From a bacterium (GTDB lineage: Bacteria; Patescibacteriota; Minisyncoccia; Phycocordibacterales; UBA6899), in assembly GCA_043756865.1 (NCBI GenBank), contig JAYUQG010000005.1, positions 40,614-104,613 of the forward strand: 64,000 nt of DNA. Reading direction: 5' to 3'. The position numbers and the translations under genes are program-made. The notes beneath the pieces were generated by a model. That model ran no database searches and was not told the DNA's origin. It saw only the letters and a program-made list of their open reading frames with translations. Shown one piece after another: positions 2,962 to 50,597 of the stretch. Every line of letters starts with the position of its first letter. Positions within the stretch are counted from its first letter, which is position 1.

Positions 2962-2972
2962 TATTACCAACT

Positions 2973-34624: not shown

Positions 34625-35026
34625 TCAGTTTGTGCTGGGGTCGTAGGGTGTGATTGGCGAACCCAACCGGAAGTTGCAGGTCAGGCTTGAGTAGCTGAGC
34701 ACCTCGCGTCCCGTGATTTCCCGCAGAGCAGCCACAGGGTTGGGAAGGCCGCGGATGTGCCCCTTGTTTTCGCCGAAGAAAATCATCACGGCGGTACGCT
34801 TCGGGGGCATAAATCGCTGATCCCATTCGTCGTCATTGCCGTACAGGGAACGCTGGCCAAAGATGTCGTAGATGACAATCGCGGGATTGCCACCGTTTTT
34901 GACTGTCGCATGTTGCTCGCGGACATCCACCATGTGGTAGCCCTTTGCACGAAGGCGTTCGCACAGTCTCGCGTCCGTGTTGGAGGCGTTGTAAACAAAC
35001 ATTGGTCGGAACATTGAGTTCTCCAT
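34625..35026 (-). CDS. hypothetical protein (133 aa)
   Basis: ORF with a terminator at its 3' end; no family recognised. Confidence 0.35.
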   Translation of the reverse strand: MENSMFRPMFVYNASNTDARLCERLRAKGYHMVDVREQHATVKNGGNPAIVIYDIFGQRSLYGNDDEWDQRFMPPKRTAVMIFFGENKGHIRGLPNPVAALREITGREVLSYSSLTCNFRLGSPITPYDPSTN

Positions 35027-35266
35027 TCTGATATTGCTTCCCCAACATCAGAGTAATCAAATAAGCGGGAAGGCTCTAAGCCATACATAATATATCATAT
35101 ATTTTATAAAAAGTCAATACTTCTTAATATCTAGTGATTGCGTACATTTTCCTGCATCGAACTACTTAAAAGACCTCACAGGCAAGCAATTGTAAAGTGG
35201 CAGGCGTTTTATATTACGTAGATTTTACAAGGTGTATGAGACGTAGTTACGCTATATACTATAAAA

Positions 35267-35662
35267 GTGAAGGAAATGAAGATTACGCGAGCAGAGTGGA
35301 GATGGGTGGGTGTATTTAGCGCTATCCTAAGTGTTTTGCTACTAGCCCCCTACTTTCTCGGTCAGTTGCTTGTAGGAGGGGGAGAAGTGTTTCTCGGCTC
35401 GCCGCTTGTCGGACCTGCAGATTACTACAGCTACCTCGCATGGATAACCCAAGCTCGTGAGGGTGAAATTCTGTTTTACAATTATTCTGCCTCTCCTCAG
35501 CTTTCTTCGACAGGCGCACTTTTCCATCCCATTTTTCTCGTACTTGGAGTTATTGCGAAATACACCGCCCTTTCTCCAATGACCCTTTATCATGGTGCCA
35601 CTGGGGTATTTGGCTTTTTGTGGGTTTTTGTATGCTATCGTTTTTTTTGCAGAGCTCAGTGA
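35267..35662 (+). CDS. N-terminal part of a polytopic membrane protein (possible ArnT/PMT-like glycosyltransferase), apparently interrupted by a frameshift
   Basis: Overlaps the next ORF by 71 nt in another frame; T8 homopolymer at ~35636-35645. Confidence 0.4.
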   Translation: MKEMKITRAEWRWVGVFSAILSVLLLAPYFLGQLLVGGGEVFLGSPLVGPADYYSYLAWITQAREGEILFYNYSASPQLSSTGALFHPIFLVLGVIAKYTALSPMTLYHGATGVFGFLWVFVCYRFFCRAQ

Positions 35663-36890
35663 GTCGGTACTATTTAGACGTGTAGCAACATTTTTGACCG
35701 TGTTCGGCAGCGGTATTGGCGCCGTAATCTTAGCTGCACCGAGTAAATTTAATTACCCTGACTACTCGATGTTTGTACGTCTGCAAGATTGCCTGCTAGG
35801 CAGTATTGATACTATATTGGCACTCACTATTTTTCTACTTGTGCTCCATAGGTCACAGCGCTCACCTATTCGGGAGGGGGTTCTCATTGGGCTGATACTA
35901 GGCTTCCTGCTTATAGTTCACCCGTACGCGGTTATTGTTATCTATGGAACATTGCTGATATTTGCACTATGGGAGTTTGGTAAAGAAAATCGCATTGCCG
36001 TATTCGATTTTTATCTCATTGCCCTTGCCGTTTCACTACCCGCGGCCTTATTCCAATCCTACTCACTCGGCGCAGACCCGTCTTTTTCTTTGTGGTTTTT
36101 CCACGGAATGTTAACTGAACGTTATTTGTTGGGCGAGTATCTTTTGGGGTTTGGATTACTTGTTCCTCTTGCTTTTTTGGGCTTTTACTTGGTTATCAAG
36201 GATAAACATATATCTAAAAGCACCGCACTACTCATTATTTGGACATTCATGATGCTTGTTGGGGTATTTCAGGAAATATTTCCCTCAATCGCTCGCCGAC
36301 TTGGCGAGACATTGATTATTCCCATCGCGTACTTTGCATCTATTCCACTTATGCAGTTGATATCAGGAAGCAGGGCAAAGCAATTGCTTGCCGTGTCGAT
36401 GTTCATCATAACCATGTTGGGTAGTGTGTTGTATTACATTACATATACGAGAACCTATGCTGAAGCTGTCTTTCGCACTCAGGAAATGAGGGAAACCCCA
36501 AATGATAAGGTGCAGTATCAGGTTTTGTCAGTACCCCAAAAAGAAGCCCTGTCATGGCTAAATTTGCATGCGGGTCCAAGCGATGTGATTCTTTCTGGAG
36601 GCACTATGGGGGGTGTTATTCCTGCATATGTGAATACTCGCGTGATTTTTGGACACCCATCATTAATGCCCGAATTGACCTCAATGCCCCTAATTGTTCC
36701 CCGAATAATGAATAATATCGCCACTTCCTCAAGGGCATGGAATAGATTTCTGACTCAAGTGACCTACGTCGTGTATGACGATGAGTTGCGTGCACTAACG
36801 TATCCTGTAAATGAAGGTAGTTGCCTACGGTTAGTATTTACAAACTCGGATATTTCAATTTATGAAGTGAACCTGAACGCCTGCGAGTAG
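35592..36890 (+). CDS. C-terminal part of the same polytopic membrane protein (about 10 TM plus C-terminal soluble domain)
   Basis: Continuous hydrophobic protein; see the frameshift finding. Confidence 0.45.
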   Translation: MVPLGYLAFCGFLYAIVFFAELSESVLFRRVATFLTVFGSGIGAVILAAPSKFNYPDYSMFVRLQDCLLGSIDTILALTIFLLVLHRSQRSPIREGVLIGLILGFLLIVHPYAVIVIYGTLLIFALWEFGKENRIAVFDFYLIALAVSLPAALFQSYSLGADPSFSLWFFHGMLTERYLLGEYLLGFGLLVPLAFLGFYLVIKDKHISKSTALLIIWTFMMLVGVFQEIFPSIARRLGETLIIPIAYFASIPLMQLISGSRAKQLLAVSMFIITMLGSVLYYITYTRTYAEAVFRTQEMRETPNDKVQYQVLSVPQKEALSWLNLHAGPSDVILSGGTMGGVIPAYVNTRVIFGHPSLMPELTSMPLIVPRIMNNIATSSRAWNRFLTQVTYVVYDDELRALTYPVNEGSCLRLVFTNSDISIYEVNLNACE

Positions 36891-36967
36891 CAACTCATTG
36901 TGGGGAAGTAGGGAATATGGGGATTGCGTGCTTTCCGCTACACTCTACAAAATGCTATAATATCAGC

Positions 36968-37525
36968 ATGTTTTCTGCACCTGAGAAGAATGTAGAGCAA
37001 TTGGAGCTCGAAGCAAACCAAATCGTTGCTGATTTTGGTGCGGGTTCTGGTGCTTACACCATTGCCGCGGCAAAAATACTGAATGGTACTGGAAAGGTCT
37101 ACGCCATTGATGTGCAGCAAGATTTGCTCACCCGACTCGAGAATACCTGTACGGAACAACATCTTGGCAATGTGGCATATATATGGGGAAATCTCGAGAA
37201 GCTAGGGGGCACGAAAATGCGTGACCAATCCTGCGACGCAGTCATTGTTTCGAACATCCTGTTTCAGGCACCGGACAAAAAAACAATCATAGAGGAAGCA
37301 AGGCGCATACTCCGTCAAGGCGGTAAACTTATGATTATCGATTGGACAGCATCCTTTAACAGCATGGGTCCCACAAAGGAACAGGTATTCCCAGAGCATG
37401 ACGCACGCCTCCTCGTCGAAGAGTCTAATTTTTCTTTTGCGAAAGCAATTAATGCAGGAAACTTTCACTATGGACTACTTTTCAGAAAGGGGATTTACCA
37501 GCCGCCCGCTATTCCAAGAGCATAA
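36968..37525 (+). CDS. class I SAM-dependent methyltransferase
   Basis: Motif I VADFGAGSGAYT. Confidence 0.65.
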   Translation: MFSAPEKNVEQLELEANQIVADFGAGSGAYTIAAAKILNGTGKVYAIDVQQDLLTRLENTCTEQHLGNVAYIWGNLEKLGGTKMRDQSCDAVIVSNILFQAPDKKTIIEEARRILRQGGKLMIIDWTASFNSMGPTKEQVFPEHDARLLVEESNFSFAKAINAGNFHYGLLFRKGIYQPPAIPRA

Positions 37526-38844
37526 TGAAATTTCAAACCATACTTCTTACATTTTTTGGTGTCATGGCGGTTGTTGGGCTAATTGTATTTTCGAAGTCTG
37601 ATGCCGAAAAAGACAATTCACCCATAGCAGAAGCCCAAGGTACCGTGGTGATATGGGGAACCTACCCAGGCACGGGCATGGCAGCAGTTATGGAAAAGTT
37701 TAATCAAACGTATGCGCTTAGCTTCACTACGGTCTATCAGTATCATGATCCCAAAACATTTGATTCCGATATTGTAGAGGCACTTGCGAGCGGTCGCGGT
37801 CCAGATATTTTGCTCCTGCCTGATGATCTTATCCTTCGACATTCAGACAAGATTGACATTATTCCTTATGCGGCGATGCCACCGGGAGTATTTTCTCAGA
37901 TGTTTATACAAGCTGCCGAGATTTATCTTCGCGACACCGGAGTCGTGGCACTCCCGTTCGCACTAGACCCGATTGTTATGTATTGGAATAGAGATTTATT
38001 TAACAACGAGTCGATTACCCAACCACCACAGTATTGGGACGAGTTACTCGTCATGGTGCCCAAGTTTACAAAGCGTGATCCCAAGACATCAGAAATTAAA
38101 CAAAGCGGGGTAGCATTCGGTGAGTATGCGAATGTTGATCACGCCAAGGACATTATTGCCATGCTGTTAATTCAGGTGGGCAACCCCCTAGTGAAGTTTG
38201 TTGATGGACGCCCTAAATCCTTTATTGCTGGGACAAGTGATGGTTACACTTTTGTCCCCGATGAGGACACTATTTCCGCATTTCGTTTCTTTATGGATTT
38301 TTCCAATCCACTAAAGGGAATATATACCTGGACTCGTTCCAAGAGTGGTTCACTCAATGAATTCATCAATGGCAATCTGGCAATTCATTTTGACTACGCA
38401 AGTTCATACAAAAAAATTCAGGAAAAGAATCCCTACCTAAATTTTTCCGTTGCCCAAGTTCCACTACCTCGCGGTACGAAAGTGCAGGCCACATACGGGA
38501 AAATGCACGGTTTCGCCGTACTCAAAACATCGCAAAACAAAAAAACCGCGCTCATCGCAATTCAGCGTCTTCTTTTTGATAAGGACCCCTCAGCAGATTT
38601 TGCTGCAGCCTTCAGTCTGCCGCCCGTACGGCGCGACCAGCTTGCGGTAAAACCCAATGACGCAGCACTTGCAGTGTTTTATGATGCCGCCATCCGTTCT
38701 CGCTCATGGTTAGACCCAAAGCCCGAACTTACTGATAAGGCCTTTAAAGAGGCCGTAGAGGGAGTTTCCTCTGGAAAAATGCCGATTGCGTTTTCACTCA
38801 CCGACCTGAGTTCTAAAATAACTGTTCCATTAGCTGCTTACTAA
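37525..38844 (+). CDS. extracellular solute-binding protein (ABC transporter, family 1 type)
   Basis: Signal anchor plus ~420-aa binding-protein fold. Confidence 0.6.
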   Translation: MKFQTILLTFFGVMAVVGLIVFSKSDAEKDNSPIAEAQGTVVIWGTYPGTGMAAVMEKFNQTYALSFTTVYQYHDPKTFDSDIVEALASGRGPDILLLPDDLILRHSDKIDIIPYAAMPPGVFSQMFIQAAEIYLRDTGVVALPFALDPIVMYWNRDLFNNESITQPPQYWDELLVMVPKFTKRDPKTSEIKQSGVAFGEYANVDHAKDIIAMLLIQVGNPLVKFVDGRPKSFIAGTSDGYTFVPDEDTISAFRFFMDFSNPLKGIYTWTRSKSGSLNEFINGNLAIHFDYASSYKKIQEKNPYLNFSVAQVPLPRGTKVQATYGKMHGFAVLKTSQNKKTALIAIQRLLFDKDPSADFAAAFSLPPVRRDQLAVKPNDAALAVFYDAAIRSRSWLDPKPELTDKAFKEAVEGVSSGKMPIAFSLTDLSSKITVPLAAY

Positions 38845-38855
38845 AGTTTATTGTT

Positions 38856-39272
38856 ATGACACGCTCAATTATTTTCTTTTTCGCAACCCTGCTTTTGGTC
38901 ATTAGTCCATCTGTTGTTTTCGGTCAGTCAACGATAATTCCTTGCGGATTTGACTTGAACGGTGACACCGTTATCAAAAATACTGCCGGCTTTGATGAAG
39001 AATGTGATTTCAATGACCTTATCACGCTTGCGCAAAACGTCATCAACTTCCTAATCTTCGCTATAGCGGGACCACTTGCAGCACTGATGTTTGCCTATGC
39101 AGGATTTCTGTATGTCACCAACCGCGGAAATGAAGGTCAAGTCAAACAAGCGCACGAAATATTTCTTTATGTGTTCTGGGGTCTTGTTATTGCCTTAGGC
39201 GCATGGGTATTTGTAAACTTTATTCTCGAGTTCTTACTAGGAGCCGGCTCAGGATTTAATTTCCTTACATAA
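38856..39272 (+). CDS. paralog 1 of an 8-member small two-TM secreted/membrane protein family (TrbC/VirB2-pilin-like topology)
   Basis: Signal peptide, hydrophilic segment, TM1, charged loop (NRGNEGQVKQAHE), TM2. Confidence 0.55.
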   Translation: MTRSIIFFFATLLLVISPSVVFGQSTIIPCGFDLNGDTVIKNTAGFDEECDFNDLITLAQNVINFLIFAIAGPLAALMFAYAGFLYVTNRGNEGQVKQAHEIFLYVFWGLVIALGAWVFVNFILEFLLGAGSGFNFLT

Positions 39273-39278
39273 TTTTAT

Positions 39279-39656
39279 ATGAATAATAAACTTTTAACCC
39301 ATGTCGGCACCCTTGCAGTGCTCCTCACCCCGATGGTGCTTGTGCATGCGGCCACCACGTATAATAATCCCGTTACCTATGCAGGCGTTTCTTCGATTCC
39401 ATGCTTTCTTGTTGCACTTGTCGACTTGATATTTCTTGTTGGAGTTCCGATTATCGTGTTATTTATTATTTATTCTGGATTTCTCTTTGTCACCGGTGGA
39501 GACAATGAGGCGCAGGTCAAGAAGGCGCGGTTTGTCTTTACTTGGACAATGGTTGGCGCGCTGGTACTTTTGGGCGCAAAAGCCATCGCACTTGCGGTAA
39601 AAAATACCGTACTGAGCCTGGGTGGTATGGCTTCTGTTGTGGGGGTCTGCGCATAG
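39279..39656 (+). CDS. paralog 2 of the pilin-like family
   Basis: Same architecture; loop GGDNEAQVKKAR. Confidence 0.55.
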   Translation: MNNKLLTHVGTLAVLLTPMVLVHAATTYNNPVTYAGVSSIPCFLVALVDLIFLVGVPIIVLFIIYSGFLFVTGGDNEAQVKKARFVFTWTMVGALVLLGAKAIALAVKNTVLSLGGMASVVGVCA

Positions 39657-39676
39657 CATAGAATATAATTTCCTAT

Positions 39677-40021
39677 ATGATTAATAAATTTTCACAAGTT
39701 GTTATTTCCATAGTATTTGCCACTTATCCGTTAAGCGTGTTTGCGGGTCCATTCAATACACTCAATAACCCCACTCCTGCGGGCGCAAATACATTTCAGG
39801 ATTATATCTACTTATTGGTACAAATTGCGCAATTAGTAGGCATACCCATGCTCGTTATGTGTATTATTTATGCGGGTTTTCTTATGGTTACAGCCGGGGG
39901 CAACGAAGAGCAGATTTCTAAGTCTAAACTTTGGTTTCTTTGGACGCTCGTCGGCGCGGCAATTATACTCGGAGCAAAGGTGCTTGCAGATCTTATCAAA
40001 GGTACAGCAACCGCATTTTAA
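39677..40021 (+). CDS. paralog 3 of the pilin-like family
   Basis: Same architecture; loop AGGNEEQISKSK. Confidence 0.55.
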   Translation: MINKFSQVVISIVFATYPLSVFAGPFNTLNNPTPAGANTFQDYIYLLVQIAQLVGIPMLVMCIIYAGFLMVTAGGNEEQISKSKLWFLWTLVGAAIILGAKVLADLIKGTATAF

Positions 40022-40025
40022 AAAT

Positions 40026-40373
40026 ATGAAATACCGATACATATCAATTGCCGCGCTCTTCACTCTACCGAGTATTGCTTTTGCCGCAGCGGCAGCAAAC
40101 TTTAAGGAGCTTGCAGAATTTTTTCTTATCGTCATTCAAAACCTCATCAGCATTATGTTTGCGGCGATGACCGTGGGACTTCTTTATGGAGTGGTGTTGT
40201 ACTTCATTAATTCTGACAACGAGAAAAAACGCGAAGAGATTCGCGGCTATCTCGTGTACGGCGTGATGGCAGTCATTGCAGTTATGGGGCTCTGGGGATT
40301 TATCGCATTGCTGAACTCAAGTTTCTTTGGTACGGCTGTGGGCATCCCTTATATTAGCAAACCATCAGTATGA
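40026..40373 (+). CDS. paralog 4 of the pilin-like family
   Basis: Same architecture; loop NSDNEKKREEIRG. Confidence 0.55.
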   Translation: MKYRYISIAALFTLPSIAFAAAAANFKELAEFFLIVIQNLISIMFAAMTVGLLYGVVLYFINSDNEKKREEIRGYLVYGVMAVIAVMGLWGFIALLNSSFFGTAVGIPYISKPSV

Positions 40374-40735
40374 TTTATTTTACACTTGCCATCGCTTTGG
40401 GGTTCGGTCTGTTTATTCCAGCAGCTGCATTTGCCGCATTTTCGAACATTCTCGGACTAGAGAGCTACCTATACGAGATCCTTTCAGCACTTTCAATGTT
40501 GTTCTGGGTGATGGCAATCGCATTTTTTATGTGGGGAGTGATAAAGTTTATCGCCAATACTGACGACCCCGCAAAACGCGAAGAAGGAAAGAAGTTTCTC
40601 GTGTGGTCAGTAATTGCATTCCTTGTACTCGTTTCTATTTGGGGGATAGTGCGATTTCTTTTGGTGGATACTATTGGAATTATGCCCGGTTCTACTAACG
40701 TGGTGTTTATAGACAAAAACGGTGTTCCCGTTTAA
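40370..40735 (+). CDS. paralog 5 of the pilin-like family
   Basis: Same architecture; loop NTDDPAKREEGKK; 4-nt overlap with paralog 4. Confidence 0.55.
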   Translation: MIYFTLAIALGFGLFIPAAAFAAFSNILGLESYLYEILSALSMLFWVMAIAFFMWGVIKFIANTDDPAKREEGKKFLVWSVIAFLVLVSIWGIVRFLLVDTIGIMPGSTNVVFIDKNGVPV

Positions 40736-40846
40736 GAGTATATTTTCTTACGCCATCTCCAATTTACTCTTTCTTATTCAGTAAGTTTTAGAGGTGCACC
40801 ACAAGAGTACATCCATTTTTATACTCCTTACGGTCGGTAAAAATTA

Positions 40847-40971
40847 GGTGCACCACGGGAGTATTTCCAATCTCTAACTCGCGATGCTCGAAGGGATTTA
40901 GGTCACTCCTTGGCGACCAATTTTTCTTTACGGTCCTCCGTGTTAGAAAAATGAAGTACTCCCCGTGGTGC
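40847..40971. repeat. 125-bp segment flanked by ~19-bp inverted repeats (GGTGCACCACGGGAGTA / TACTCCCCGTGGTGC), with a third direct copy at 40794-40815
   Basis: Located in the 558-bp gap that splits the paralog array. Confidence 0.45.
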
Positions 40972-41122
40972 TTTGAAAAGTGTCTCCTCGGAAACTAATT
41001 CAGAAATAGTTAACGAGAGTTGGCATCAGAAAACTAGAGAACTACAGCTAGCCTGTTTTTTGGGTAGCATATAATTAACCGTAGGTGAGTTTACGCTCAC
41101 CATGATGAAATTACGAAAAGTA

Positions 41123-41151
41123 TTGACAATAAGCGCAATTTCTGATACAGT
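41123..41151 (+). promoter_or_regulatory. sigma70-like promoter TTGACA-N17-TACAGT upstream of paralogs 6-8
   Basis: tattgacaataagcgcaatttctgatacagttatatat. Confidence 0.45.
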
Positions 41152-41293
41152 TATATATTGACCTTTAGAAATGATAATCCACAGGTATCTCTTGCGGACG
41201 ATTGTGCAGTAAGGTCAAGTAGGATATCATTTAAGTATAGTTTCGTAGTAGGTCGTTTTGTTTCTTATTAACAGTTTATACACATTTTAGTTT

Positions 41294-41647
41294 ATGAAAA
41301 AATTAATCACCATCGCAATGCTTTTCGGTGTAACGAAGGTCGCATTTGCAGCTTCTACTCTGCAAAACACACTGACCGAGGTTAAGTCACTTGTTGACTT
41401 CCTCGTTCCACTGCTTCTTTCGCTCGCGGTCCTCATGTTCTTCTGGGGATTGGTCAAGTATATTGCCAATGCAAGCGACGAGGCTGCAAAGGAGTCAGGC
41501 AAGACCCTCATGATTTGGGGTATGGTCGCGATCTTCGTTATGGTTGCCTTCTGGGGAATCATCGGCTACGTACAGCAGACACTTGGTCTTTCAGGAACAA
41601 TCAATACTCCTGCAGCACCTGTCATCAACATCATTCCTACGACCTAA
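41294..41647 (+). CDS. paralog 6 of the pilin-like family
   Basis: Same architecture; loop NASDEAAKESGKT; intrinsic terminator follows. Confidence 0.55.
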   Translation: MKKLITIAMLFGVTKVAFAASTLQNTLTEVKSLVDFLVPLLLSLAVLMFFWGLVKYIANASDEAAKESGKTLMIWGMVAIFVMVAFWGIIGYVQQTLGLSGTINTPAAPVINIIPTT

Positions 41648-41731
41648 ATCGTCTAGGTTTGGTATTCGAAAACACCCGCTACTGCGGGTGTTTTCATTTT
41701 GACTCTTTGAATCCAATCCGCATCCTTTTCT

Positions 41732-42100
41732 GTGGTTAAAAGACTTCTATTCCTTCTTCTGGGTTGCTATACTTTGCCTATGTTACAAATATTTCTTCCG
41801 AGCGTGGCGCATGCAGCTCCACCCCCGATTCCTAATAGTGTGCTTAATTTCGTTGGACTCATTTCAAGTGAAATCCTCAATCCCGTCATTGCGCTTATGT
41901 TTGGGCTTGCAACTGCGTATTTTATATATGGTATTTTGGTTTATATCTGGAATCCAGACAATGAAGAGGCACGAGATAGTGGCCGCAGAACAATGCTTTG
42001 GGGCATTATCGGTATGTTTATTATGGTCGCCGTGTTCGGAATTATGAGGTTCCTTATTAGTAGTATTGGCGCTGATCCTGCGCTTATGAATTATGTCTAA
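41732..42100 (+). CDS. paralog 7 of the pilin-like family (GTG start)
   Basis: Signal peptide MVKRLLFLLLGC...VAHA; loop NPDNEEARDSGRR. Confidence 0.5.
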   Translation: MVKRLLFLLLGCYTLPMLQIFLPSVAHAAPPPIPNSVLNFVGLISSEILNPVIALMFGLATAYFIYGILVYIWNPDNEEARDSGRRTMLWGIIGMFIMVAVFGIMRFLISSIGADPALMNYV

Positions 42101-42440
42101 AAAATTCGTTTTCATTCTTCTTTTTGGTCTTCCAGCCGTCTCCAGCGCAGCATCTATGCTCACATTCATTAACGATGTAACTGGCTATTTTGCTGATTTA
42201 ATTCCCATTTTCCTCAGTTTAATGATTGTGGTGTTCTTTTGGGGAGTAGTAAAGTTTATTTATCACGCAGATGACGAAAAGGCAGTTGCAGAAGGAAAGT
42301 CCATTATGATTTGGGGAGTTGTGGGTATCGGTGTCGTCGCGCTCTTGTGGGGTATTGTCGGATATTTGCAGGTTTCATTAGGCCTTAATACGACGACAAC
42401 AGTTGGAAATGGTCCGCAGATTGTGACAAATATTCCCTAG
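42093..42440 (+). CDS. paralog 8 of the pilin-like family
   Basis: Loop HADDEKAVAEGKS; 8-nt overlap with paralog 7. Confidence 0.55.
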   Translation: MSKKFVFILLFGLPAVSSAASMLTFINDVTGYFADLIPIFLSLMIVVFFWGVVKFIYHADDEKAVAEGKSIMIWGVVGIGVVALLWGIVGYLQVSLGLNTTTTVGNGPQIVTNIP

Positions 42441-42802
42441 AACCCATCCACCATCTTTTGTGCCGTACCAGAAAAGCGACATTTTGCCTGATAAAACAGT
42501 CTTCGCGAGCCAATGATGCTTTGGCATCATTTCCTGCTCCAGACAATTTTCTCATGCAAAATCTCATCTTTTTGGCATCGACAAAAAGATAGTGGATAGG
42601 CTCTTTGGACTCGTCCACCAATAACTTCATAGTTATTGGTGATGACGGTCCTTTGTGCCAGGTCCATTTTTTATAGCAACCTATTAATGGATGAAGTCTT
42701 AGTTTCCCCCTTTGTTGTGAGCGGGTTTCGAGGATACATCTTTGAGCATAAAAAAACGCCGAGGACTAGCCTCGACGCGTGCGCATCTGCGCAAAAGAAC
42801 GC

Positions 42803-44428
42803 TTACTTTTTCAACCTGACCATCACCTTGGCATCGGCCCCCGTATCGTTGAGGACTCTTGCCATTACGGAGGCATCTGCGGGAAGCTTCCCGAGAAAGA
42901 TCTCAATGACAAAGTGACTGCCACCAGTGTCCCATCTCAGATAGAATTCACCCGACTGCGAGCCACCTTCGTTGGACCATATGCCCCAGCACGACTTCGG
43001 CGTTTTGGCTTTACTGTCGGTTGCAGAAGCGCACTGCCCATTGAAGAGTAGATTCCATTCAGGACGGGATTCATCCAAGAGCACACGAAGGCTGATTTTG
43101 TCTGCAACGTAGCTCTCGTCACCGAGCGGCTTTTTTGTGCCGTGGTAGTTGTATTGAGGAAGACCCTTGTGTGGGTTTGGCTGCTGATACAGTGCCTCGT
43201 ATTTCGGAGCATCTCCGAGCATGAGTGCGGGTTCACGGCGAACCGTGGAGCTCGGCGTAGACATAGCATTTCTGCCGGTCACGACGTCCTTCATAGTTTC
43301 CATACTCGGCACGTTCGGGTTATCCGAAAGGACGGTGTACCCACCCCAGCCCAGGCCACCAGCTGCACCGAGCCAAAGCAGCGCCGGCCCAAGCTTGAGA
43401 CTCTCCTTTGCTTTTCCGCCCGCAGTAGCTACAGCACCGTTTCTCCTGTTCCATGCCCATTTTATCCCCCAAAACACGGGAATATGTAGAATCAGCAGGA
43501 CGAGGGCGTAGCCTGGGTTTTCAGACACCCATTTTGACCACGTTGCTGGTTGTGACCATATGAAGGCAGCGTTGCCCGCTACCTCACCCGTTTTTGAGCC
43601 GCCCGCTTTGATGGGCTTCCTTCCTGCATACGAGTCTTCCCAGACTTTTTTTGCTGGAGGCCAGTACTTGCCCATTTCTTCGAGCGTAATGTTGCCATTT
43701 GCCTCGCAAAGCGATTTGTATGCAGTGGCTTGTTCCGGAGCCCACTTCTTGCGTGCGTCGTCGGAGTGTTTACACTCCATGAGTGCTTTTGTCCACCTGA
43801 GTTGCTTCTGCAGGCGATCGTCTTGGATTTTTACGTCCGCATCGCCCAGCTCGTTTGCCGCAATCTCCGACTGTGGCGTACCTGTGAGCGTGATTCCTAC
43901 CTTTTTGAGGAGGTGGGGATTCATCTGTGGGATCACACCTGCAATGGCCAGCACAACAATGGTACCCGTAATCCACGGCAGCCACTCGTCAAGATGGCTA
44001 TTTGGAAGCAGGAGTGCGGCTGCGATACACACGACAATCACAAGGATTATCTGCGGGAATGCAGTGGGCGCTCCAATCATGCGACAGACGATAGCGACAT
44101 AACCTGCCACAACGGCTGAGATGATCAAGAGGAGGTAGAGCCTCCACACAGACTTCTTTGCAGGGTCGTCTTTGTGGTAGAAGAACTCACCGAGTGCCGC
44201 TATTCCGCCGACGTTCGGCTGCCAGTAGATTTTCGTGAGTAGAATCACGAACAACCACATGGCAATGTTGATTACGCCGTACCCGCCCCAAGCCGTAAGG
44301 CCCCAGAGCGAGAGGAGGTAGACGAGCACGAAGCCGAATACCGCCATCATCTTTCCGTACGCCCAATTTGTGGCGTATACCACTTCGTCTTTCGCCAGCT
44401 TGGCGAGGTTCGATGCGTTGTTTGTCAT
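42803..44428 (-). CDS. large polytopic membrane protein (about 6-7 TM with two large hydrophilic domains), function unknown; VirB6/TrbL-like role is speculative
   Basis: Start set at MTNNASN, overlapping the upstream stop codon (translational coupling). Confidence 0.5.
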   Translation of the reverse strand: MTNNASNLAKLAKDEVVYATNWAYGKMMAVFGFVLVYLLSLWGLTAWGGYGVINIAMWLFVILLTKIYWQPNVGGIAALGEFFYHKDDPAKKSVWRLYLLLIISAVVAGYVAIVCRMIGAPTAFPQIILVIVVCIAAALLLPNSHLDEWLPWITGTIVVLAIAGVIPQMNPHLLKKVGITLTGTPQSEIAANELGDADVKIQDDRLQKQLRWTKALMECKHSDDARKKWAPEQATAYKSLCEANGNITLEEMGKYWPPAKKVWEDSYAGRKPIKAGGSKTGEVAGNAAFIWSQPATWSKWVSENPGYALVLLILHIPVFWGIKWAWNRRNGAVATAGGKAKESLKLGPALLWLGAAGGLGWGGYTVLSDNPNVPSMETMKDVVTGRNAMSTPSSTVRREPALMLGDAPKYEALYQQPNPHKGLPQYNYHGTKKPLGDESYVADKISLRVLLDESRPEWNLLFNGQCASATDSKAKTPKSCWGIWSNEGGSQSGEFYLRWDTGGSHFVIEIFLGKLPADASVMARVLNDTGADAKVMVRLKK

Positions 44429-45252
44429 CACTTTCTCCTTGAGCGGATGCCGAACATCCGTAGAGTTGTATTGATGGCGCCGTCTCCCTGCAACAGGGGT
44501 TCCGGCACCGGTTTTGCGCCGGTGAGACCCGTGTTTGCGAATCGTCCCCACAAACTCATGGAGACAGGTTTGGCGCGCTTGGCGTTCCTTTCTGCGATGA
44601 ATGCAGTGACTTTGGGGGAGTCGACGAGCTCTTTGAGGCTATTCACCTCCAGAGGATCGAGAACGGTTACCTTGAAGCCTTTTGAGTACATTGCCCATGT
44701 CTTCACGATTGGGCTTTGCTCAAGAATGCGTAGGTTGTACAGCGAATTCACGACTTCGCGCATGCGCCCGTCTGGTGTGTCGCCGATGCGAGCCACAATC
44801 ATTTGAAGCGTTTTTACGCGATCGTCAATCTCACTTACGGTGAGGGTCTGCTGCACGACATCTTCGGTCGGCTTGTCAGCCGGATTCTTTCCACCGTCTT
44901 GGCGCACTGTTTTTGTGGTGGACTTCGGCACCAACTGGATTGACGTTATTGTCATCCAGAAAAAGTACCGTTCGTAGTCGGTCATCGCCTTAAGCAGACG
45001 TTCGAGCTTTGCCGCTTCTTCGGTTGTAAGCTTGCCGAGCAAAAGGGCGGTAAGAGAGTTCTCACCGAACCCAATGCCAAACATTTTCGGCATCTGCTGC
45101 TTAATGACGTCTGCGCCACCTGCATCGAGAAATGACTGGATGCGACCACCCATACCACTGCCGTGCGCGGGGTTGCCCCTGAATGCGGCCATGAGCGATG
45201 CTGCGAGACTGGTCACCTCCAGCGCGGTTTCTGCCTTACCCATTCCGGTCAT
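44428..45252 (-). CDS. hypothetical soluble protein (274 aa) co-transcribed with the large membrane protein
   Basis: Protein-like composition; operon arrangement. Confidence 0.45.
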   Translation of the reverse strand: MTGMGKAETALEVTSLAASLMAAFRGNPAHGSGMGGRIQSFLDAGGADVIKQQMPKMFGIGFGENSLTALLLGKLTTEEAAKLERLLKAMTDYERYFFWMTITSIQLVPKSTTKTVRQDGGKNPADKPTEDVVQQTLTVSEIDDRVKTLQMIVARIGDTPDGRMREVVNSLYNLRILEQSPIVKTWAMYSKGFKVTVLDPLEVNSLKELVDSPKVTAFIAERNAKRAKPVSMSLWGRFANTGLTGAKPVPEPLLQGDGAINTTLRMFGIRSRRK

Positions 45253-45439
45253 GATGTATCCTTTCGTTTGTGATAGTCAAATTGTCAAAGTGTAAATTCC
45301 AAACGGAATTCTGTAAACATTATAGCAAATTATACAAGAAAAGTCAAGTATTTAGGTCTCAAATAATGGCTTAACCACAACAAATAATACCCTAGTATTT
45401 TAGTGTGTGTTGCGGTCTATGTGGATTGGTGACAAATCT

Positions 45440-45756
45440 CTAATTTTTTTTCTTGTACAGACAAAAAATGTAAGTGTTCGCAACCCCACAGCGCTGTTTC
45501 GCGTGCTCGCGAAACAGCGCTGTGGTTCACAATATCGAGGGAGGACTAGGTCACAAGTCACTAAGTCTTGTGACTCACTTCGTGAGCCAAAAGCAAAGTG
45601 CTCGCGACCCTTACAGGGTTTGTACACCTTGTTGGTTTTCTCAAAATGGGAATTTCTCGAAAACATCGTCAAGGTCTTCAAGTCCTCTCGCGAAAGTGCA
45701 GCCAAGCACCTTCTCTGGGCACAATGCAAAAATCCCTTCTGGGGATTTTTGCATTG
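45440..45756. repeat. composite tRNA-linked repeat/hairpin region downstream of tRNA-Leu(TAG)
   Basis: 18-bp hairpin ccacagcgctgtttcgcg/cgcgaaacagcgctgtgg; gtcacaagtcactaag block; cccttacagggt block; degenerate GGGCTTCGACTCC box; 22-bp hairpin ctgggcacaatgcaaaaatccc/ggggatttttgcattgtgcccag that includes the tRNA 3' end. Confidence 0.55.
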
Positions 45757-45838
45757 TGCCCAGGAGAGGACTTGAACCTCCACCTCTTGCGAGACCAGTT
45801 CCTAAGACTGGCGCGGCTACCAATTACGCCACCTGGGC
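45757..45838 (-). tRNA. tRNA-Leu (anticodon TAG), long variable arm, no encoded CCA
   Basis: Manual fold: acceptor GCCCAGG/CCTGGGC, anticodon stem-loop CCAGT-CTTAGGA-ACTGG, T-arm GGAGG-TTCAAGT-CCTCT. Confidence 0.8.
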
Positions 45839-45919
45839 AGGTGATAGGGGAATACTATACTGATTATTGGGAAAAAGAAATGGCACAAAAAAGCGGCACG
45901 AGGCCGCTCCTGTTCCTTC

Positions 45920-46189: not shown

Positions 46190-46437
46190 TTTTTGCAACC
46201 TTCACCCAGCTGCATCCTCGGCTCCCGCAGTGGGCATTCGGGCTTTGGTCACAAGTCACTAGATTTCGGCAGGAATTTCGGTCATTACATGACCAGTACC
46301 CGTTTCCCATTTCTTCGTGATATGAATCACTCACAAATATGGGAGAACGGCTTCGAATCCTGCCAGAAGTGCCGCAGGGCACTTCTTCGGGGGCACACAT
46401 AACAAAAAAACTGCCAAAGCAGTTTTTTTGTTATGTG
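46190..46437. repeat. composite tRNA-linked repeat downstream of tRNA-Lys
   Basis: ggtcacaagtcactag block; ggtcattacatgacc hairpin + AGTACCCGTTTCCCAT; ATATGGGAGAACGGCTTCGAATCC box; gaagtgcc-gcag-ggcacttc hairpin; 27-bp hairpin including the tRNA 3' end. Confidence 0.6.
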
Positions 46438-46510
46438 TGCCCCCGGCAGGATTCGAACCTGCGACCGTCTCGTTAAGAGCGAGCTGCTCTACCAACTGAG
46501 CTACGAAGGC
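46438..46510 (-). tRNA. tRNA-Lys (anticodon CTT), no encoded CCA
   Basis: Manual fold: acceptor GCCTTCG/CGGGGGC (two G-U pairs), anticodon loop CTCTTAA, T-arm GCAGG-TTCGAAT-CCTGC. Confidence 0.8.
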
Positions 46511-48527: not shown

Positions 48528-50597
48528 TTGGAATATAAAATAATCAATATGAAACAACAACATATCATACTCGGTGCTTGTGTGGTGCTTATGGCGATCG
48601 TCGCATTTTATGCAGTAAGCATGGATCAGAACGGTGAAAAGCAAAATATGGACACAACCAAAGGTGGATATATTCCTCAGCCCGACCTTTCACAAACTGA
48701 ACTGAAGGGGCTTCCTGTTGCATCAGTCGAAAAACGCGTTGACCTCAAAGTGCCGATATTTTCTAATCCAACAATTATCACCCATCCGCTTTTCCCAGTG
48801 AATAACCTTTCTCATGCTATCCTACTGGGAAATGACGACGGGAGACCACTGCAAGTCGTTTACACACTGCTTCCTGAAAGTATGAATAAAACCATCGATT
48901 GGAATGGTCAGAAAATTGAGACGCGTACTGTCCAGTACCTTGCTTATTTTGACCGTCGACTTATTGAGTCAGCCTATGATTGGTATGCACAAGCTGATGA
49001 TGGCTCGGTGTGGTACTTCGGCGAAGTGGTGACAAATTATGCAGACGGAAAGGTGACGGATAATCATGGAACGTGGCTGGCCGAAAAGGATGGACCCATC
49101 GCGATGATTATGCCCGCTGATCCAAAGGTGGGTGATGTGTACCGCGTGGAGAATATCCCTGGCGTAGCTTTTGAGGAAGTTGAAGTGAAGTCTATGAACA
49201 CGACAGCCGTTGGACCCCTCGGGGAAGTTCGGGGTTGTATGGTTGGATCACAACTTCATGATAACGGGAGCTATTCGGACAAGACTTTCTGTCCAGGGTA
49301 TGGTGAATTTTTTACTCAAAAAGATCTTGATCTTGAAGCTGTGGCACTAGCACTTCCGGTAGATGCCCTTGCAAAGCAAGCACCTGCTGAGCTTGCGACA
49401 ATGATGTCGAGCGCACTTCTTATTCATGATTCGGCACTCAACAATGACTGGAATGTGGTAGCAAGGGAACTTTCATCTCTCAAGGTGGCATGGAATGCTC
49501 TCCAGAAAAACCCTGATGGAGTTTCAGTGAGACTGGGGGCGCAAATGGAACGCGCCATAGAATCCCTTGAAGGCGATGCGCTAGAGCCGGGGGCCTTAGC
49601 TCGTTATACGATCGGAACACAGAACGGAGCTCTCGATGTAGCTTTTGCCGCACTCGACCTTGAAAGACGTTATCGTGCCACTGCAGAGATTGAATTGGCA
49701 AGTATTACTCTATGGGCTCGGAAAACGATAATAGATGCTAATGCACTCGAGCAAGGTTTTGTTCTTAGTGATGCACGCGCCTTCGAATTCTTAATTGAGC
49801 GTGTTAAGGAGAAATTATCAAAGGGTGATGCTGACCAACTCGAAATACTTGTGAAACAATTAGCAACTGCTGCAGACAAAGAAGACTTCAAAAAAATAAA
49901 GTCCATTGCGAGTCAACTCGCCACACATCAATATCGCGTAATTTCCCAAGGCCAATTATCTGAACAATATGATCCAAAAATAATTCCTGCAGATTTTTCG
50001 ACCCAGATCACCAACAAGTATTTTTCGTTGCCGATCGGAAAGAAGATGGTTTATGAGGCAAGGACAGAAGAAGGGAAGTTGGAAAGAGTCGAGATCAGTA
50101 TACTCAATGAAACAAAAATAATTGAAGGAGTCGCGACGATCATTTATTTAGATAGGGTATATAACGATGGTCAGCTCGTTGAAGAAACCCGAGATTACTT
50201 GGCACAGCACAAGAATGGCGATGTGTGGTACTTCGGTGAAGAAGTGGACAACTATGAGAATGGAAAACTCAAGGATCACCACGGAAGTTTTATTCATGGC
50301 AAGAATGGGGCAAAAGCAGGCATATGGATGAAGGCTAGCCAGAAGGTAGGGGATACATATCGCCAAGAATACTTTAAGGGAGAAGCAGAGGATGTCCGTG
50401 ACACAGTGGTGACCGGTTTGACCGTTGTGACAAAAAAGGCGACGTACGTTGACTGCGTTAAGGTTTATGATTGGACTCCCCTCGACCTCAAATCGCGTGA
50501 ACATAAATACTATTGTAGTGAGGTGGGTGGACTCGTCCTTAATGAGCACCTTGAGACTGGTAAGCGGTCAGAGCTTGTGAGTGTAACGATGCCATAA
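48528..50597 (+). CDS. secreted/membrane-anchored protein with two internal ~150-aa repeats (DGSVWYFGEVVTNYADGKVTDNHG... / NGDVWYFGEEVDNYENGKLKDHHG...)
   Basis: Internal duplication visible in the translation; no family recognised. Confidence 0.5.
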   Translation: MEYKIINMKQQHIILGACVVLMAIVAFYAVSMDQNGEKQNMDTTKGGYIPQPDLSQTELKGLPVASVEKRVDLKVPIFSNPTIITHPLFPVNNLSHAILLGNDDGRPLQVVYTLLPESMNKTIDWNGQKIETRTVQYLAYFDRRLIESAYDWYAQADDGSVWYFGEVVTNYADGKVTDNHGTWLAEKDGPIAMIMPADPKVGDVYRVENIPGVAFEEVEVKSMNTTAVGPLGEVRGCMVGSQLHDNGSYSDKTFCPGYGEFFTQKDLDLEAVALALPVDALAKQAPAELATMMSSALLIHDSALNNDWNVVARELSSLKVAWNALQKNPDGVSVRLGAQMERAIESLEGDALEPGALARYTIGTQNGALDVAFAALDLERRYRATAEIELASITLWARKTIIDANALEQGFVLSDARAFEFLIERVKEKLSKGDADQLEILVKQLATAADKEDFKKIKSIASQLATHQYRVISQGQLSEQYDPKIIPADFSTQITNKYFSLPIGKKMVYEARTEEGKLERVEISILNETKIIEGVATIIYLDRVYNDGQLVEETRDYLAQHKNGDVWYFGEEVDNYENGKLKDHHGSFIHGKNGAKAGIWMKASQKVGDTYRQEYFKGEAEDVRDTVVTGLTVVTKKATYVDCVKVYDWTPLDLKSREHKYYCSEVGGLVLNEHLETGKRSELVSVTMP

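What the first reader, a model, noticed from the sequence alone, without database searches (positions are those of the whole stretch)
38856..45252. Tandem array of eight diverged paralogous small two-TM secreted proteins (VirB2/TrbC-pilin-like topology) converging on a large polytopic membrane protein and a coupled soluble protein
Seen in sequence: eight consecutive plus-strand genes of 114-138 aa, at 38856, 39279, 39677, 40026, 40370, 41294, 41732 and 42093. Each encodes a cleavable-looking signal peptide, a ~25-aa hydrophilic stretch, TM1 ending in an aromatic-Gly motif (YSGFLFV, FWGLVKYI, MWGVIKFI, IYGILVYI...), a short acidic/basic loop (DNEAQVKKAR, SDEAAKESGK, DDEKAVAEGK, NPDNEEARDSGRR...), then TM2 starting with a conserved Trp or Tyr (LMIWGMV, IMIWGVV, FLVWSVI, MLWGII). 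Pairwise identity is low outside this skeleton, indicating old duplications under diversifying pressure. Spacing is 4-20 nt, some overlapping, so they are operonic. A 558-bp gap with a TTGACA-N17-TACAGT promoter and an inverted-repeat-flanked element splits the array 5+3. Convergent on the minus strand are a 541-aa multi-TM protein with two large extracytoplasmic domains (42803-44428) and a 274-aa soluble protein (44428-45252), translationally coupled. Established knowledge: a signal peptide plus two TM helices separated by a short charged loop in a ~100-aa protein is the hallmark of TrbC/VirB2 conjugative and T4SS pilins. Inference: a multi-pilin surface filament, T4SS-like or host-attachment system with antigenic or functional diversification, or an entirely novel two-TM family. 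Nothing else in the window (no VirB4/VirD4 ATPase) confirms a T4SS.
Basis: partly seen in the sequence, partly recalled or inferred. Interest (0 to 1): 0.8.

Follow-up and report, generated by a model that had tools for sequence, protein, structure and literature searches.

The report
Patescibacterial VirB2-like pilin gene array
The eight small genes are a real tandem array of VirB2-like "T4SS pilin" paralogs in a Candidatus Lloydbacteria-like ultra-small (CPR) bacterium, a kind of array already described for this phylum, so it is a well-formed new example and not a new system.

Summary
Eight same-strand genes (38856-42440) encode 106-138 aa proteins with a leader, two hydrophobic helices and a short charged loop. 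Seven of eight pass the Pfam gathering score for PF18895 (T4SS_pilin).

GyrA is 82-88% identical to Ca. Lloydbacteria MAGs, so the host is a Patescibacteria (CPR) bacterium. Arrays of 2-11 divergent VirB2-like pilins are published for this phylum, and one such array is essential in Southlakia epibionticum.

What I add:
- **Conserved cassette.** The array is the expanded (8 versus the usual 5) form of gyrA – methyltransferase – solute-binding-like protein – pilins, seen in 60 of 80 related species loci. Gene positions are orthologous, so the paralogs are old and individually retained.
- **5+3 split.** It is the ancestral 3|2 split. The gap carries a conserved promoter region with a DnaA-box-like motif.
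- **Transcription units.** pil6 has its own promoter and a conserved terminator. pil7 probably starts at 41780 on a leaderless transcript.
- **Convergent pair.** The 274/541-aa pair belongs to no known family and is hypervariable (23-24% identity where neighbours are 47-79%). Its link to the pilins is unproven.
- **No T4SS ATPase** lies in the window.

The parts
36917..37525 (+). Class I SAM-dependent methyltransferase, first gene of the conserved cassette (the true start is probably near 36968, because orthologs are about 177-183 aa)
   Evidence: Pfam Methyltransf_31/25/11 and Ubie_methyltran. Orthologs sit immediately upstream of the SBP-pilin genes in 66 ORF hits across the fetched loci.
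37525..38844 (+). Membrane-anchored family-1 solute-binding-protein-like gene. It overlaps the methyltransferase stop by 1 nt and ends 11 nt before pil1.
   Evidence: Pfam SBP_bac_1/SBP_bac_8. Orthologs lie directly upstream of the pilin array in about 62-65 loci. No permease gene is adjacent.
38856..39272 (+). pil1, T4SS_pilin paralog (group A; ortholog of array position 1)
   Evidence: PF18895 38.2 bits (GA 26.6) and TrbC 23.4 bits. Leader ending VFG|Q plus two hydrophobic helices. Best hits are position 1 in other arrays.
39279..39656 (+). pil2, T4SS_pilin paralog (group A; position-2 ortholog)
   Evidence: PF18895 28.4 bits. Positional best hits.
39677..40021 (+). pil3, T4SS_pilin paralog (group A; lineage-specific duplicate of position 2)
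   Evidence: PF18895 29.8 bits and TrbC 22.4 bits. 48% identical to pil2. Best hits are position 2.
40026..40373 (+). pil4, divergent pilin paralog (group B; position-3 type)
   Evidence: PF18895 only 19.4 bits, below GA. It has the same architecture and 46-55% identical orthologs at the same position in L008, L009, L011 and L092.
40370..40735 (+). pil5, T4SS_pilin paralog (group B; position-3 type); last gene of the first block
   Evidence: PF18895 46.8 bits. NF045849 40.8 bits, above its cutoff of 40.
40736..41293 (.). Internal gap, the ancestral 3|2 split of the array. About 190 nt is a conserved promoter/leader. The rest is a roughly 370-nt lineage-specific insertion containing a long hairpin (about 40846-40971).
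   Evidence: The gap between positions 3 and 4 has a median of 114 nt, against 10-28 nt for the other gaps, in 29 five-gene arrays. The same gap is 189 nt in L008 and 186 nt in L092. Hairpin z-score -3.4. No Rfam hit. The hairpin motif is absent from all 94 loci.
41123..41151 (+).
   Evidence: 10/12 match with TG. The TTGACA aligns only with L092, not with L008 or L011.
41175..41183 (+). DnaA-box-like motif TAATCCACA(G) upstream of pil6
   Evidence: Invariant block in alignment A6. Exact ATCCACA/TGTGGAT occurs in 21 of 54 array-internal gaps against 1.1 expected.
41202..41230 (+). Conserved TTGTGC-17-TATCAT promoter-like element. The TATCAT block is invariant among four relatives. AGGTCG (41250-41255) and TTATTAA leader blocks follow.
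   Evidence: Alignment A6. TATAAT-like boxes and (A)GGTCG blocks recur in gaps of many species. Read from the sequence.
41294..41647 (+). pil6, T4SS_pilin paralog (position-4 ortholog); proposed major subunit
   Evidence: PF18895 35.3 bits. It has its own promoter region and a terminator. Orthologs are 62-83% identical in relatives. 193 homologs with E<=1e-5, nearly all PF18895, including named Lloydbacteria MAG proteins. Highest GC3 of the pilins, 0.55.
41668..41695 (+). Intrinsic-terminator-like hairpin after pil6 (12-bp stem followed by a T-run)
   Evidence: An equivalent hairpin with different sequence sits at the same place in L008 and is visible in L092 and L085.
41765..41773 (+). Extended -10 (TGCTATACT) 6 nt upstream of ATG 41780, implying a leaderless pil7-pil8 transcript
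   Evidence: TGATATAAT-N6-ATG is conserved at the same place in L008, L092 and L085.
41780..42100 (+). pil7, T4SS_pilin paralog (position-5 ortholog), probably 106 aa with a 12-aa leader MLQIFLPSVAHA.
   Evidence: PF18895 30.4 bits. The gene caller gives 106 aa. Orthologs have in-frame stops upstream. Position-5 genes in other species lack a signal peptide. Orthologs are 63-78% identical.
42093..42440 (+). pil8, T4SS_pilin paralog (closest to pil6, 47%); overlaps pil7 by 8 nt; the fastest-evolving pilin of the second block
   Evidence: PF18895 45.9 bits. 39-52% identity to its orthologs.
42756..42778 (-). Terminator-like hairpin after the 541-aa gene
42803..44428 (-). 541-aa polytopic membrane protein. 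It has five N-terminal TM helices, an extracytoplasmic helical domain (about 186-267, conserved Cys219/Cys241), two more TM helices around a K/R-rich loop, and a C-terminal 8-stranded beta-barrel domain (about 400-541, conserved Cys466/Cys480). Family unknown. Belonging to the pilin system is unproven.
44428..45252 (-). 274-aa soluble protein with no TM or signal peptide, translationally coupled to the 541-aa gene (TGATG); family unknown
   Evidence: No family hit. Five homologs. It is always paired with a 541-like gene. AF2 is low confidence and all-helical. Junction sequence.
45319..45347 (-). Promoter-like TTGACT-17-TATAAT for the 274/541 operon
   Evidence: 11/12 match with TG.

Best explanation
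The locus is a chromosomal array of eight VirB2-like 'T4SS_pilin' (PF18895) paralogs in a Ca. Lloydbacteria-like member of the Paceibacteria (Patescibacteria/CPR). It is the expanded form of a five-gene array, split 3|2, that lies downstream of gyrA behind a methyltransferase and a solute-binding-like protein in most related species. Three lineage-specific duplications made 5+3.

Shown: family membership, taxonomy, conserved synteny, positional orthology, and predicted promoter, terminator and leader elements.

Inferred from homology with VirB2/TrbC/TraA pilins and from the essential pilin array of Southlakia epibionticum: each protein is inserted into the membrane as a helical hairpin. pil1-6 and pil8 would use a Sec leader cut at an AxA-type site by signal peptidase I, which is encoded at 19987-20691. 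pil7 has only a 12-aa leader. The membrane pool is then extracted and polymerised by a VirB4-driven, monoderm-type T4SS encoded elsewhere in the genome. The result would be a surface filament or conduit used in contact with a host cell.

Because each array position is retained across the class, I take the paralogs to be specialised subunits and not interchangeable antigenic variants. pil6 is the likely major subunit: it has its own promoter region, a conserved terminator and the most conserved sequence of the second block. pil7-pil8 form a separate leaderless unit.
For: - PF18895 above the gathering score for 7 of 8 proteins, with sub-threshold TrbC hits. NF045849 pilin-like family.
- Leader plus 2-TM architecture.
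- GyrA 82-88% identical to Lloydbacteria MAGs.
- Same-strand pilin arrays downstream of gyrA in 60 of 80 species loci. Sizes among the 52 complete arrays: 4 (5 arrays), 5 (31), 6 (12), 7 (3), 8 (1).
- Methyltransferase-SBP-pilin cassette.
- Best hits fall at the same array position in 90/93/48/61/87% of comparisons. Mapping of window genes to positions.
- Conserved internal gap. Promoter and terminator elements.
- Signal peptidase I in the window.
- Literature: 441 arrays of 2-11 VirB2-like pilins with mean 25% identity in Patescibacteria (PMC12102498). The pilin array is essential within the T4SS cluster of S. epibionticum (PMC10633639, PMC12857230).
Against: - No VirB4, VirD4, VirB6 or other T4SS gene lies in the 64-kb window.
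- No conserved large ATPase family lies within about 10 kb of the gyrA-linked arrays in 80 related loci.
- No T4SS pilus has been seen in any patescibacterium (per PMC12857230, which calls it a possibility).
- pil4 is below the Pfam threshold.
- TrbC/VirB2 proper is not matched above threshold, and the PDB VirB2 hit is not significant (E 0.11).
- The major/minor assignment rests only on predicted regulatory elements and conservation.
Confidence: 0.78

Rival explanations
1. The proteins are PF18895 members but do not form a T4SS pilus here. In Paceibacteria the gyrA-linked cassette would work as a membrane or surface complex together with the co-transcribed solute-binding-like protein, for example in uptake or adhesion, independently of VirB4.
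For: The array is linked to a methyltransferase and an orphan SBP-like gene, not to virB4, in about 60 species. The spacing is tight and operon-like. The family name rests on similarity alone, and no pilus has been observed (PMC12857230).
Against: In Saccharimonadia the homologous array lies inside the T4SS cluster and is essential along with it (PMC10633639). According to PMC12102498, pilin genes lie near virB4 in 1135 of the 1948 assemblies that have both. The weak affinities are all to conjugative pilins.
Confidence: 0.15
2. The multiplicity mainly serves antigenic or host-range variation, with interchangeable pilins under diversifying selection, as proposed for Bartonella and Anaplasma VirB2 paralogs.
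For: Pairwise identity is low. Copy number varies from 4 to 8 between species. pil8, pil4 and pil5 evolve faster than pil1, pil6 and pil7. PMC12102498 suggests this reading.
Against: Array positions 1, 2 and 5 are orthologous in 87-93% of comparisons across species whose GyrA is only about 65% identical. Positions differ systematically in length and leader type: position 5 is about 90 aa with no signal peptide. The blocks have separate conserved promoters. All this points to fixed, distinct roles.
Confidence: 0.1
3. The convergent 274/541-aa pair is an integral accessory of the pilin system. It could be an 'extended VirB6'-like membrane platform, or a surface adhesin or specificity factor.
For: In all 8 distinct homolog contexts where neighbouring genes could be seen, the pair converges on the last pilin gene. 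The one contig with no neighbours, L094, is uninformative. The architecture of five or more TM helices plus large hydrophilic domains resembles extended VirB6 proteins as described in PMC12857230. Conserved Cys pairs and a beta-barrel ligand-binding-type fold suggest surface exposure. Extreme divergence fits a host-interaction role.
Confidence: 0.2

Closest known systems
Patescibacterial VirB2-like pilin arrays (Pfam PF18895 T4SS_pilin), e.g. the essential six-pilin array of Southlakia epibionticum ML1 and the 441 arrays catalogued by Quinonero-Coronel et al. 2025
   Same: Same Pfam family. Same phylum. Tandem arrays of 2-11 genes at about 25% identity. Leader plus two helices. Chromosomal location with no relaxase.
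   Different: This array is not beside virB4. It follows gyrA, a methyltransferase and an SBP-like gene, an arrangement the paper does not mention (gyrA is not in its text). It sits at the upper end of copy number for its class (8, against a mode of 5).
TrbC/VirB2/TraA conjugative pilins of diderm T4SS (Pfam PF04956; pKM101 TraM, PDB 8cw4)
   Same: Small size. Cleaved leader. Two hydrophobic helices joined by a short charged loop. Weak profile similarity (23.4 and 22.4 bits; best PDB hit).
   Different: Scores are below the family threshold. No cyclase or acetylase and no T4SS genes are nearby. The host is a monoderm. There are eight paralogs where diderm systems have one.
Mbov_0395 family pilin-like conjugal transfer protein of Mycoplasma ICEs (NCBIfam NF045849)
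   Same: pil5 reaches the family cutoff (40.8 against 40) and the other paralogs hit below it. This is a monoderm, MPF-FATA-type context, consistent with the proposed origin of the patescibacterial T4SS.
   Different: Only one of eight proteins passes. This locus is not on an ICE, and no conjugation genes are present.
VirB2 paralog clusters of Bartonella and Anaplasma
   Same: Several divergent VirB2 paralogs in tandem.
   Different: Those are read as antigenic or host-range variants next to a complete virB operon. Here the positions are anciently orthologous and differ in type.
Extended VirB6 proteins (for the 541-aa protein only)
   Same: Five or more TM helices plus central and C-terminal hydrophilic domains.
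   Different: There is no sequence-profile or structural match. This is a resemblance of architecture only.

Membership tests
PF18895 T4SS_pilin (VirB2-like pilins of Patescibacteria and monoderms) | Profile HMM match at or above the curated gathering score (26.6 bits) | tested here: met
   pil1 38.2, pil2 28.4, pil3 29.8, pil5 46.8, pil6 35.3, pil7 30.4, pil8 45.9 bits. pil4 is below at 19.4. Precomputed PF18895 on the same genes in an independent assembly.
PF18895 T4SS_pilin | Small protein with an N-terminal leader and two hydrophobic helices separated by a short charged loop | tested here: met
   Alignment and hydropathy. AxA-type sites (VFG, VHA, VFA, AFA, AFA, AFA, AHA, SSA) were read from the sequence. 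No SignalP run. pil7 has only a 12-aa leader.
PF18895 T4SS_pilin | Occurs in tandem arrays of divergent paralogs in Patescibacteria | tested here: met
   Patescibacterial host. Arrays in 60 of 80 related loci. Identities of 25-48%. Matches PMC12102498.
PF18895 T4SS_pilin | Genetic linkage to a T4SS (VirB4, VirB6, VirB3/8) | tested here: not met
   No such gene among all ORFs of 400 aa or more, or most mid-size ORFs, of the 64-kb window. None conserved within about 10 kb in relatives. The rest of the genome could not be read. The literature reports that many pilin genes are not near virB4.
PF18895 T4SS_pilin | Polymerises into an extracellular filament | not testable with these tools
   Needs microscopy or biochemistry. 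Not yet shown for any patescibacterium (PMC12857230).
PF04956 TrbC/VirB2 | Profile match above the gathering score (27.9 bits) | tested here: not met
   Best scores are 23.4 (pil1), 22.4 (pil3) and 16.5 (pil2) bits. None for pil4-8.
PF04956 TrbC/VirB2 | Similarity to a solved VirB2-type pilin | tested here: inconclusive
   The paralog profile's best PDB hit is pKM101 TraM (8cw4), but at E = 0.11.
   No holin or immunity family appears in the Pfam or NCBIfam lists up to E = 1. No PHROG hit for pil1 or pil6.
VirB6/TrbL (considered for the 541-aa protein) | Profile match to TrbL/VirB6, or structural match to a solved VirB6 | tested here: not met
SPFH/Band_7 with membrane partner (considered for the 274/541 pair, since that pair type fills the same slot in other Paceibacteria) | Band_7 domain in the upstream gene | tested here: not met
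   No Band_7 hit. No similarity to the L008 Band_7 neighbour. The model is all-helical but of low confidence.

The most novel reading that the evidence does not exclude
The gyrA-linked methyltransferase – SBP-like – pilin cassette is a class-wide surface organelle of Paceibacteria with its own internal logic. That logic would be a major pilin (position 4) under a DnaA-box-containing promoter, a signal-peptide-less position-5 pilin made from a leaderless transcript, and, in the Lloydbacteria lineage, a hypervariable membrane-anchored beta-barrel protein with a cytoplasmic partner that sets host specificity.
Probability: 0.15. Interest if true: 0.6.

Novelty: new member of a known kind. Interest (0 to 1): 0.35.

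Why it matters
Patescibacteria are a large share of uncultured bacterial diversity, and most are thought to live attached to host cells. In the one genetically tractable species, the VirB2-like pilin array is essential. This would be the first hint of a pilus on a monoderm-type T4SS.

This window adds no new kind of system. It does give a clean, expanded example in a different class, and the comparison suggests testable structure:
- fixed, orthologous pilin positions, which argues for specialised subunits over antigenic variants;
- a candidate major pilin;
- a conserved DnaA-box-like site in its promoter;
- a fast-evolving neighbouring surface-protein pair that could be checked as a specificity factor.

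Tried and rejected
- **Two-module idea.** I considered that '3 pilins + convergent pair' is a separate mobile module, because in L002 and L086 a fatty-acid hydroxylase gene, not more pilins, precedes the short pilin block. I rejected it. L008 and L092 have contiguous 5+3 arrays, window genes map onto the ancestral five positions, and the 558-nt gap holds no hydroxylase remnant.
- **274-aa protein as a diverged SPFH/Band_7 protein.** No similarity was found and the model is all-helical. The model is too weak (pLDDT 50) for fold search, so none was run.
- **Searches for more 541-aa loci.** The genome-contig scan with alignment A2 and the metagenome-contig scan with A5 found nothing. Alignment A3 was too divergent to seed a scan.
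- **Reading beyond the window for a VirB4 gene.** Only short Logan contigs were returned.
- **Structured RNA in the gap.** No Rfam match at E <= 1. The hairpin motif is unique to this genome.
- **pil5 against plasmids by tblastn.** No match.
- **Foreign origin of the pair.** GC3 is 0.62-0.63 against 0.38-0.55 for neighbours. Homologs in other genomes track their neighbours' GC3. This is left as a hint only.

Full report
**Observation.** The eight plus-strand ORFs are present at the coordinates given. Their translations align into one family with a leader, a first hydrophobic helix ending in an aromatic-Gly motif, a short charged loop and a second helix starting with W/Y. Seven of eight independently exceed the Pfam gathering score of PF18895, T4SS_pilin (28.4-46.8 bits against 26.6). 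pil4 scores 19.4 bits. pil1-3 also give sub-threshold TrbC/VirB2 (PF04956) hits. NCBIfam returns the Mycoplasma ICE 'Mbov_0395 pilin-like conjugal transfer protein' family for seven of the eight paralogs (not pil2), with pil5 above its cutoff. No holin or immunity family appears. The paralogs form two groups: pil1-3 are 41-48% identical and pil4-8 are 25-47%. The 541-aa and 274-aa minus-strand genes are real. An independent assembly calls them identically. They are joined by a TGATG overlap with an AAGGAG upstream.

The pil6-pil7 spacer is long and holds a 12-bp-stem terminator at 41668-41695. The GTG start of pil7 at 41732 is not conserved. Orthologs in L008, L092 and L085 have in-frame stops there and start at the equivalent of ATG 41780, preceded by TGnTATAAT-N6 (in the window TGCTATACT-N6). 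This implies a leaderless transcript and a 12-aa leader. Position-5 orthologs in more distant species have no signal peptide at all.

**Host and context.** The window is ordinary chromosome: RND efflux, a two-component system, ftsZ/ftsA, hisS, signal peptidase I, gyrA, a sigma factor, infB, clpB and six tRNAs. GyrA is 82-88% identical to Ca. Lloydbacteria MAGs and 64-69% to other Parcubacteria/Paceibacteria, so the organism is a patescibacterium. No VirB4, VirD4 or VirB6 is in the window. I could not read beyond it.

**What is known.** Quinonero-Coronel et al. 2025 (PMC12102498) searched 3,035 Patescibacteria genomes with PF18895 and PF04956, among other profiles. They report 441 arrays of 2-11 VirB2-like pilin genes in 383 assemblies, with mean identity 25%. 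Wang et al. 2023 (PMC10633639) showed that the pilin series in the T4SS cluster of Southlakia epibionticum is essential for epibiotic growth. A 2025 T4SS review (PMC12857230) treats a pilus on this monoderm-type T4SS as an intriguing possibility. The finding is therefore a member of a described kind.

**Comparative anatomy (new here).** I built an HMM of the eight paralogs and searched ORFs of 80 gyrA loci from different species.
- It finds a same-strand pilin array downstream of gyrA in 60 loci. Of these, 52 are complete, with sizes 4 (5 arrays), 5 (31), 6 (12), 7 (3) and 8 (1).
- The arrays follow a SAM methyltransferase and a membrane-anchored SBP_bac_1-like protein, with operon-like spacing.
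- Among five-gene arrays, the best hit of a gene in another species lies at the same array position in 90, 93, 48, 61 and 87% of comparisons for positions 1-5.
- The window genes map as pil1 = position 1, pil2 and pil3 = position 2, pil4 and pil5 = position 3, pil6 = position 4, pil7 = position 5, and pil8 = a further copy closest to pil6.
- The 5+3 split is the ancestral 3|2 split. That gap has a median of 114 nt, against 10-28 nt for the other gaps.
- Close relatives L008 and L092 share the 5+3 layout.

Retention of distinct positions across a class argues for specialised subunits and against interchangeable variants.

**Regulatory anatomy (predicted).**
- The part of the gap next to pil6 is conserved among four relatives (alignment A6). 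It has invariant blocks TAATCCACAG, TATCAT (a -10-like box 17 nt after TTGTGC), AGGTCG and TTATTAA.
- The first block resembles a DnaA box. Exact ATCCACA/TGTGGAT occurs in 21 of 54 array-internal gaps, against 1.1 expected from 1.3 Mb of background. Shuffled gaps give a mean of 0.94 and a maximum of 5.
- pil6 is followed by a terminator whose structure, but not sequence, is kept in L008.
- pil6 and pil7 orthologs are 62-83% identical among relatives, while pil8 orthologs are 39-52%.

From this I infer three units: methyltransferase-SBP-pil1-5, then pil6 alone (candidate major pilin), then leaderless pil7-pil8.

**The convergent pair.**
- The 541-aa protein has one other hit in 5.8 billion proteins and 32 in 1.84 billion representatives. 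The 274-aa protein has five homologs. Neither matches Pfam, NCBIfam or PHROGs.
- The AF2 model of the 541-aa protein (pLDDT 74) shows an N-terminal helical membrane bundle, a confident helical domain, two further TM helices around a K/R-rich loop, and a C-terminal 8-stranded beta-barrel.
- Hydropathy, the positive-inside rule and two conserved Cys pairs place both hydrophilic domains outside the cell. This is inference.
- In all 8 distinct homolog contexts where neighbours could be seen, a 274-like plus 541-like pair converges on the last pilin gene. One contig, L094, held only the gene itself.
- These contexts are one syntenic lineage. In the fully syntenic L092, flanking proteins are 47-79% identical to the window's, but the pair is only 23-24%.
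- In L008 the slot holds a Band_7 gene plus a 359-aa protein that shares only the barrel domain. In other Paceibacteria it holds Band_7 plus unrelated proteins.
- In the window the pair also has a deviant GC3 of 0.62-0.63.

I conclude that it is a hypervariable surface-protein slot beside the array. A functional tie to the pilins is possible but not shown.

**Mechanism and confidence.** Family membership is secure. The working model is membrane-inserted hairpins extracted and polymerised by a VirB4-type T4SS encoded elsewhere, forming a filament or conduit for host contact. That model is inference from homology and from the Southlakia genetics. The main weakness is the lack of any T4SS gene near this array or near its counterparts in relatives. 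This keeps alive the rival that the cassette works with its SBP-like partner independently of a T4SS.

**Verdict.** This is a genuine, nicely organised, but already-known kind of locus. Interest is moderate to low for the finding as stated. Several testable side observations came out of the comparison.

Noticed in passing
window 41175-41183 (also 41276-41284 and 41731-41739); internal gaps of arrays in L008, L011, L016, L022, L027-L031, L040, L046, L048, L057, L062, L067, L068, L070, L075, L079, L092: A DnaA-box-like motif, [T/A][T/A]ATCCACA(G), sits 70-140 nt upstream of the position-4 pilin gene in 20 of the 21 motif-bearing gaps (278 nt in L031). It occurs in 21 of 54 array-internal gaps from different species, against 1.1 expected. 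-10-like, AGGTCG and ATTATTAA blocks follow it. This may tie pilin expression to DnaA.
   Followed up: partly
window 41765-41782; L008 about 17050-17069; L092 and L085 equivalents: A conserved extended -10 (TGnTATAaT) lies exactly 6 nt before the pil7 ATG in four genomes, implying a leaderless mRNA. Position-5 pilins across Paceibacteria lack a normal signal peptide.
   Followed up: partly
window 42803-45252 compared with L092 8996-11587: The convergent 274/541-aa pair sits in a hypervariable slot. It is 23-24% identical between syntenic genomes whose flanking proteins are 47-79% identical. In the window its GC3 is 0.62-0.63 against 0.38-0.55 for neighbours, which could reflect allele replacement by recombination.
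   Followed up: partly
window 40846-40971: A long imperfect hairpin (arms GGTGCACCACGGGAGTA... and ...TACTCCCCGTGGTGC; RNA fold z = -3.4) lies inside a roughly 370-nt insertion in the pilin gap. A third half-copy is at 40792-40809. It has no Rfam match and is absent from all fetched relatives. It may be a small mobile or structured element.
   Followed up: partly
window 34625-36890: A 432-aa polytopic membrane protein and a 133-aa minus-strand ORF lie between gyrA and the methyltransferase. Neither has a Pfam hit or a homolog in any of the 80 related gyrA loci, where gyrA is followed directly by the methyltransferase. This looks like a lineage-specific insertion.
   Followed up: partly
L021 16679-18262, L015 16475-18147, L041 17199-19489, L008 17812-20091: In other Paceibacteria the slot convergent on the pilin array usually holds an SPFH/Band_7 gene plus a small or mid-size protein of no known family.
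   Followed up: partly
window 45484-45526, 45717-45766, 46397-46441: Three long, near-perfect hairpins. Two abut the 3' ends of tRNA-Leu(tag) and tRNA-Lys(ctt) on the minus strand and are probably tRNA terminators. They generate the mirror-image spurious ORFs listed around 45400-45860.
   Followed up: no
window 48528-50597: A 689-aa secreted-looking protein with no Pfam or PHROG hit. Its N- and C-terminal regions repeat a similar motif (…DGSVWYFGE…NYADGKVTDNHGTW… and …NGDVWYFGEEVDNYENGKLKDHHGSF…), which suggests an internal duplication.
   Followed up: no
window 1246-6077: A membrane-fusion (HlyD-like) gene and a full-length AcrB-type RND transporter (718 bits) in a patescibacterial genome.
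   Followed up: no
L010, L053, L064, L074: Some related genomes with long flanks downstream of gyrA have no pilin array there (in L010 uvrA-like and other genes follow). The cassette is therefore widespread but not universal at this position.
   Followed up: no
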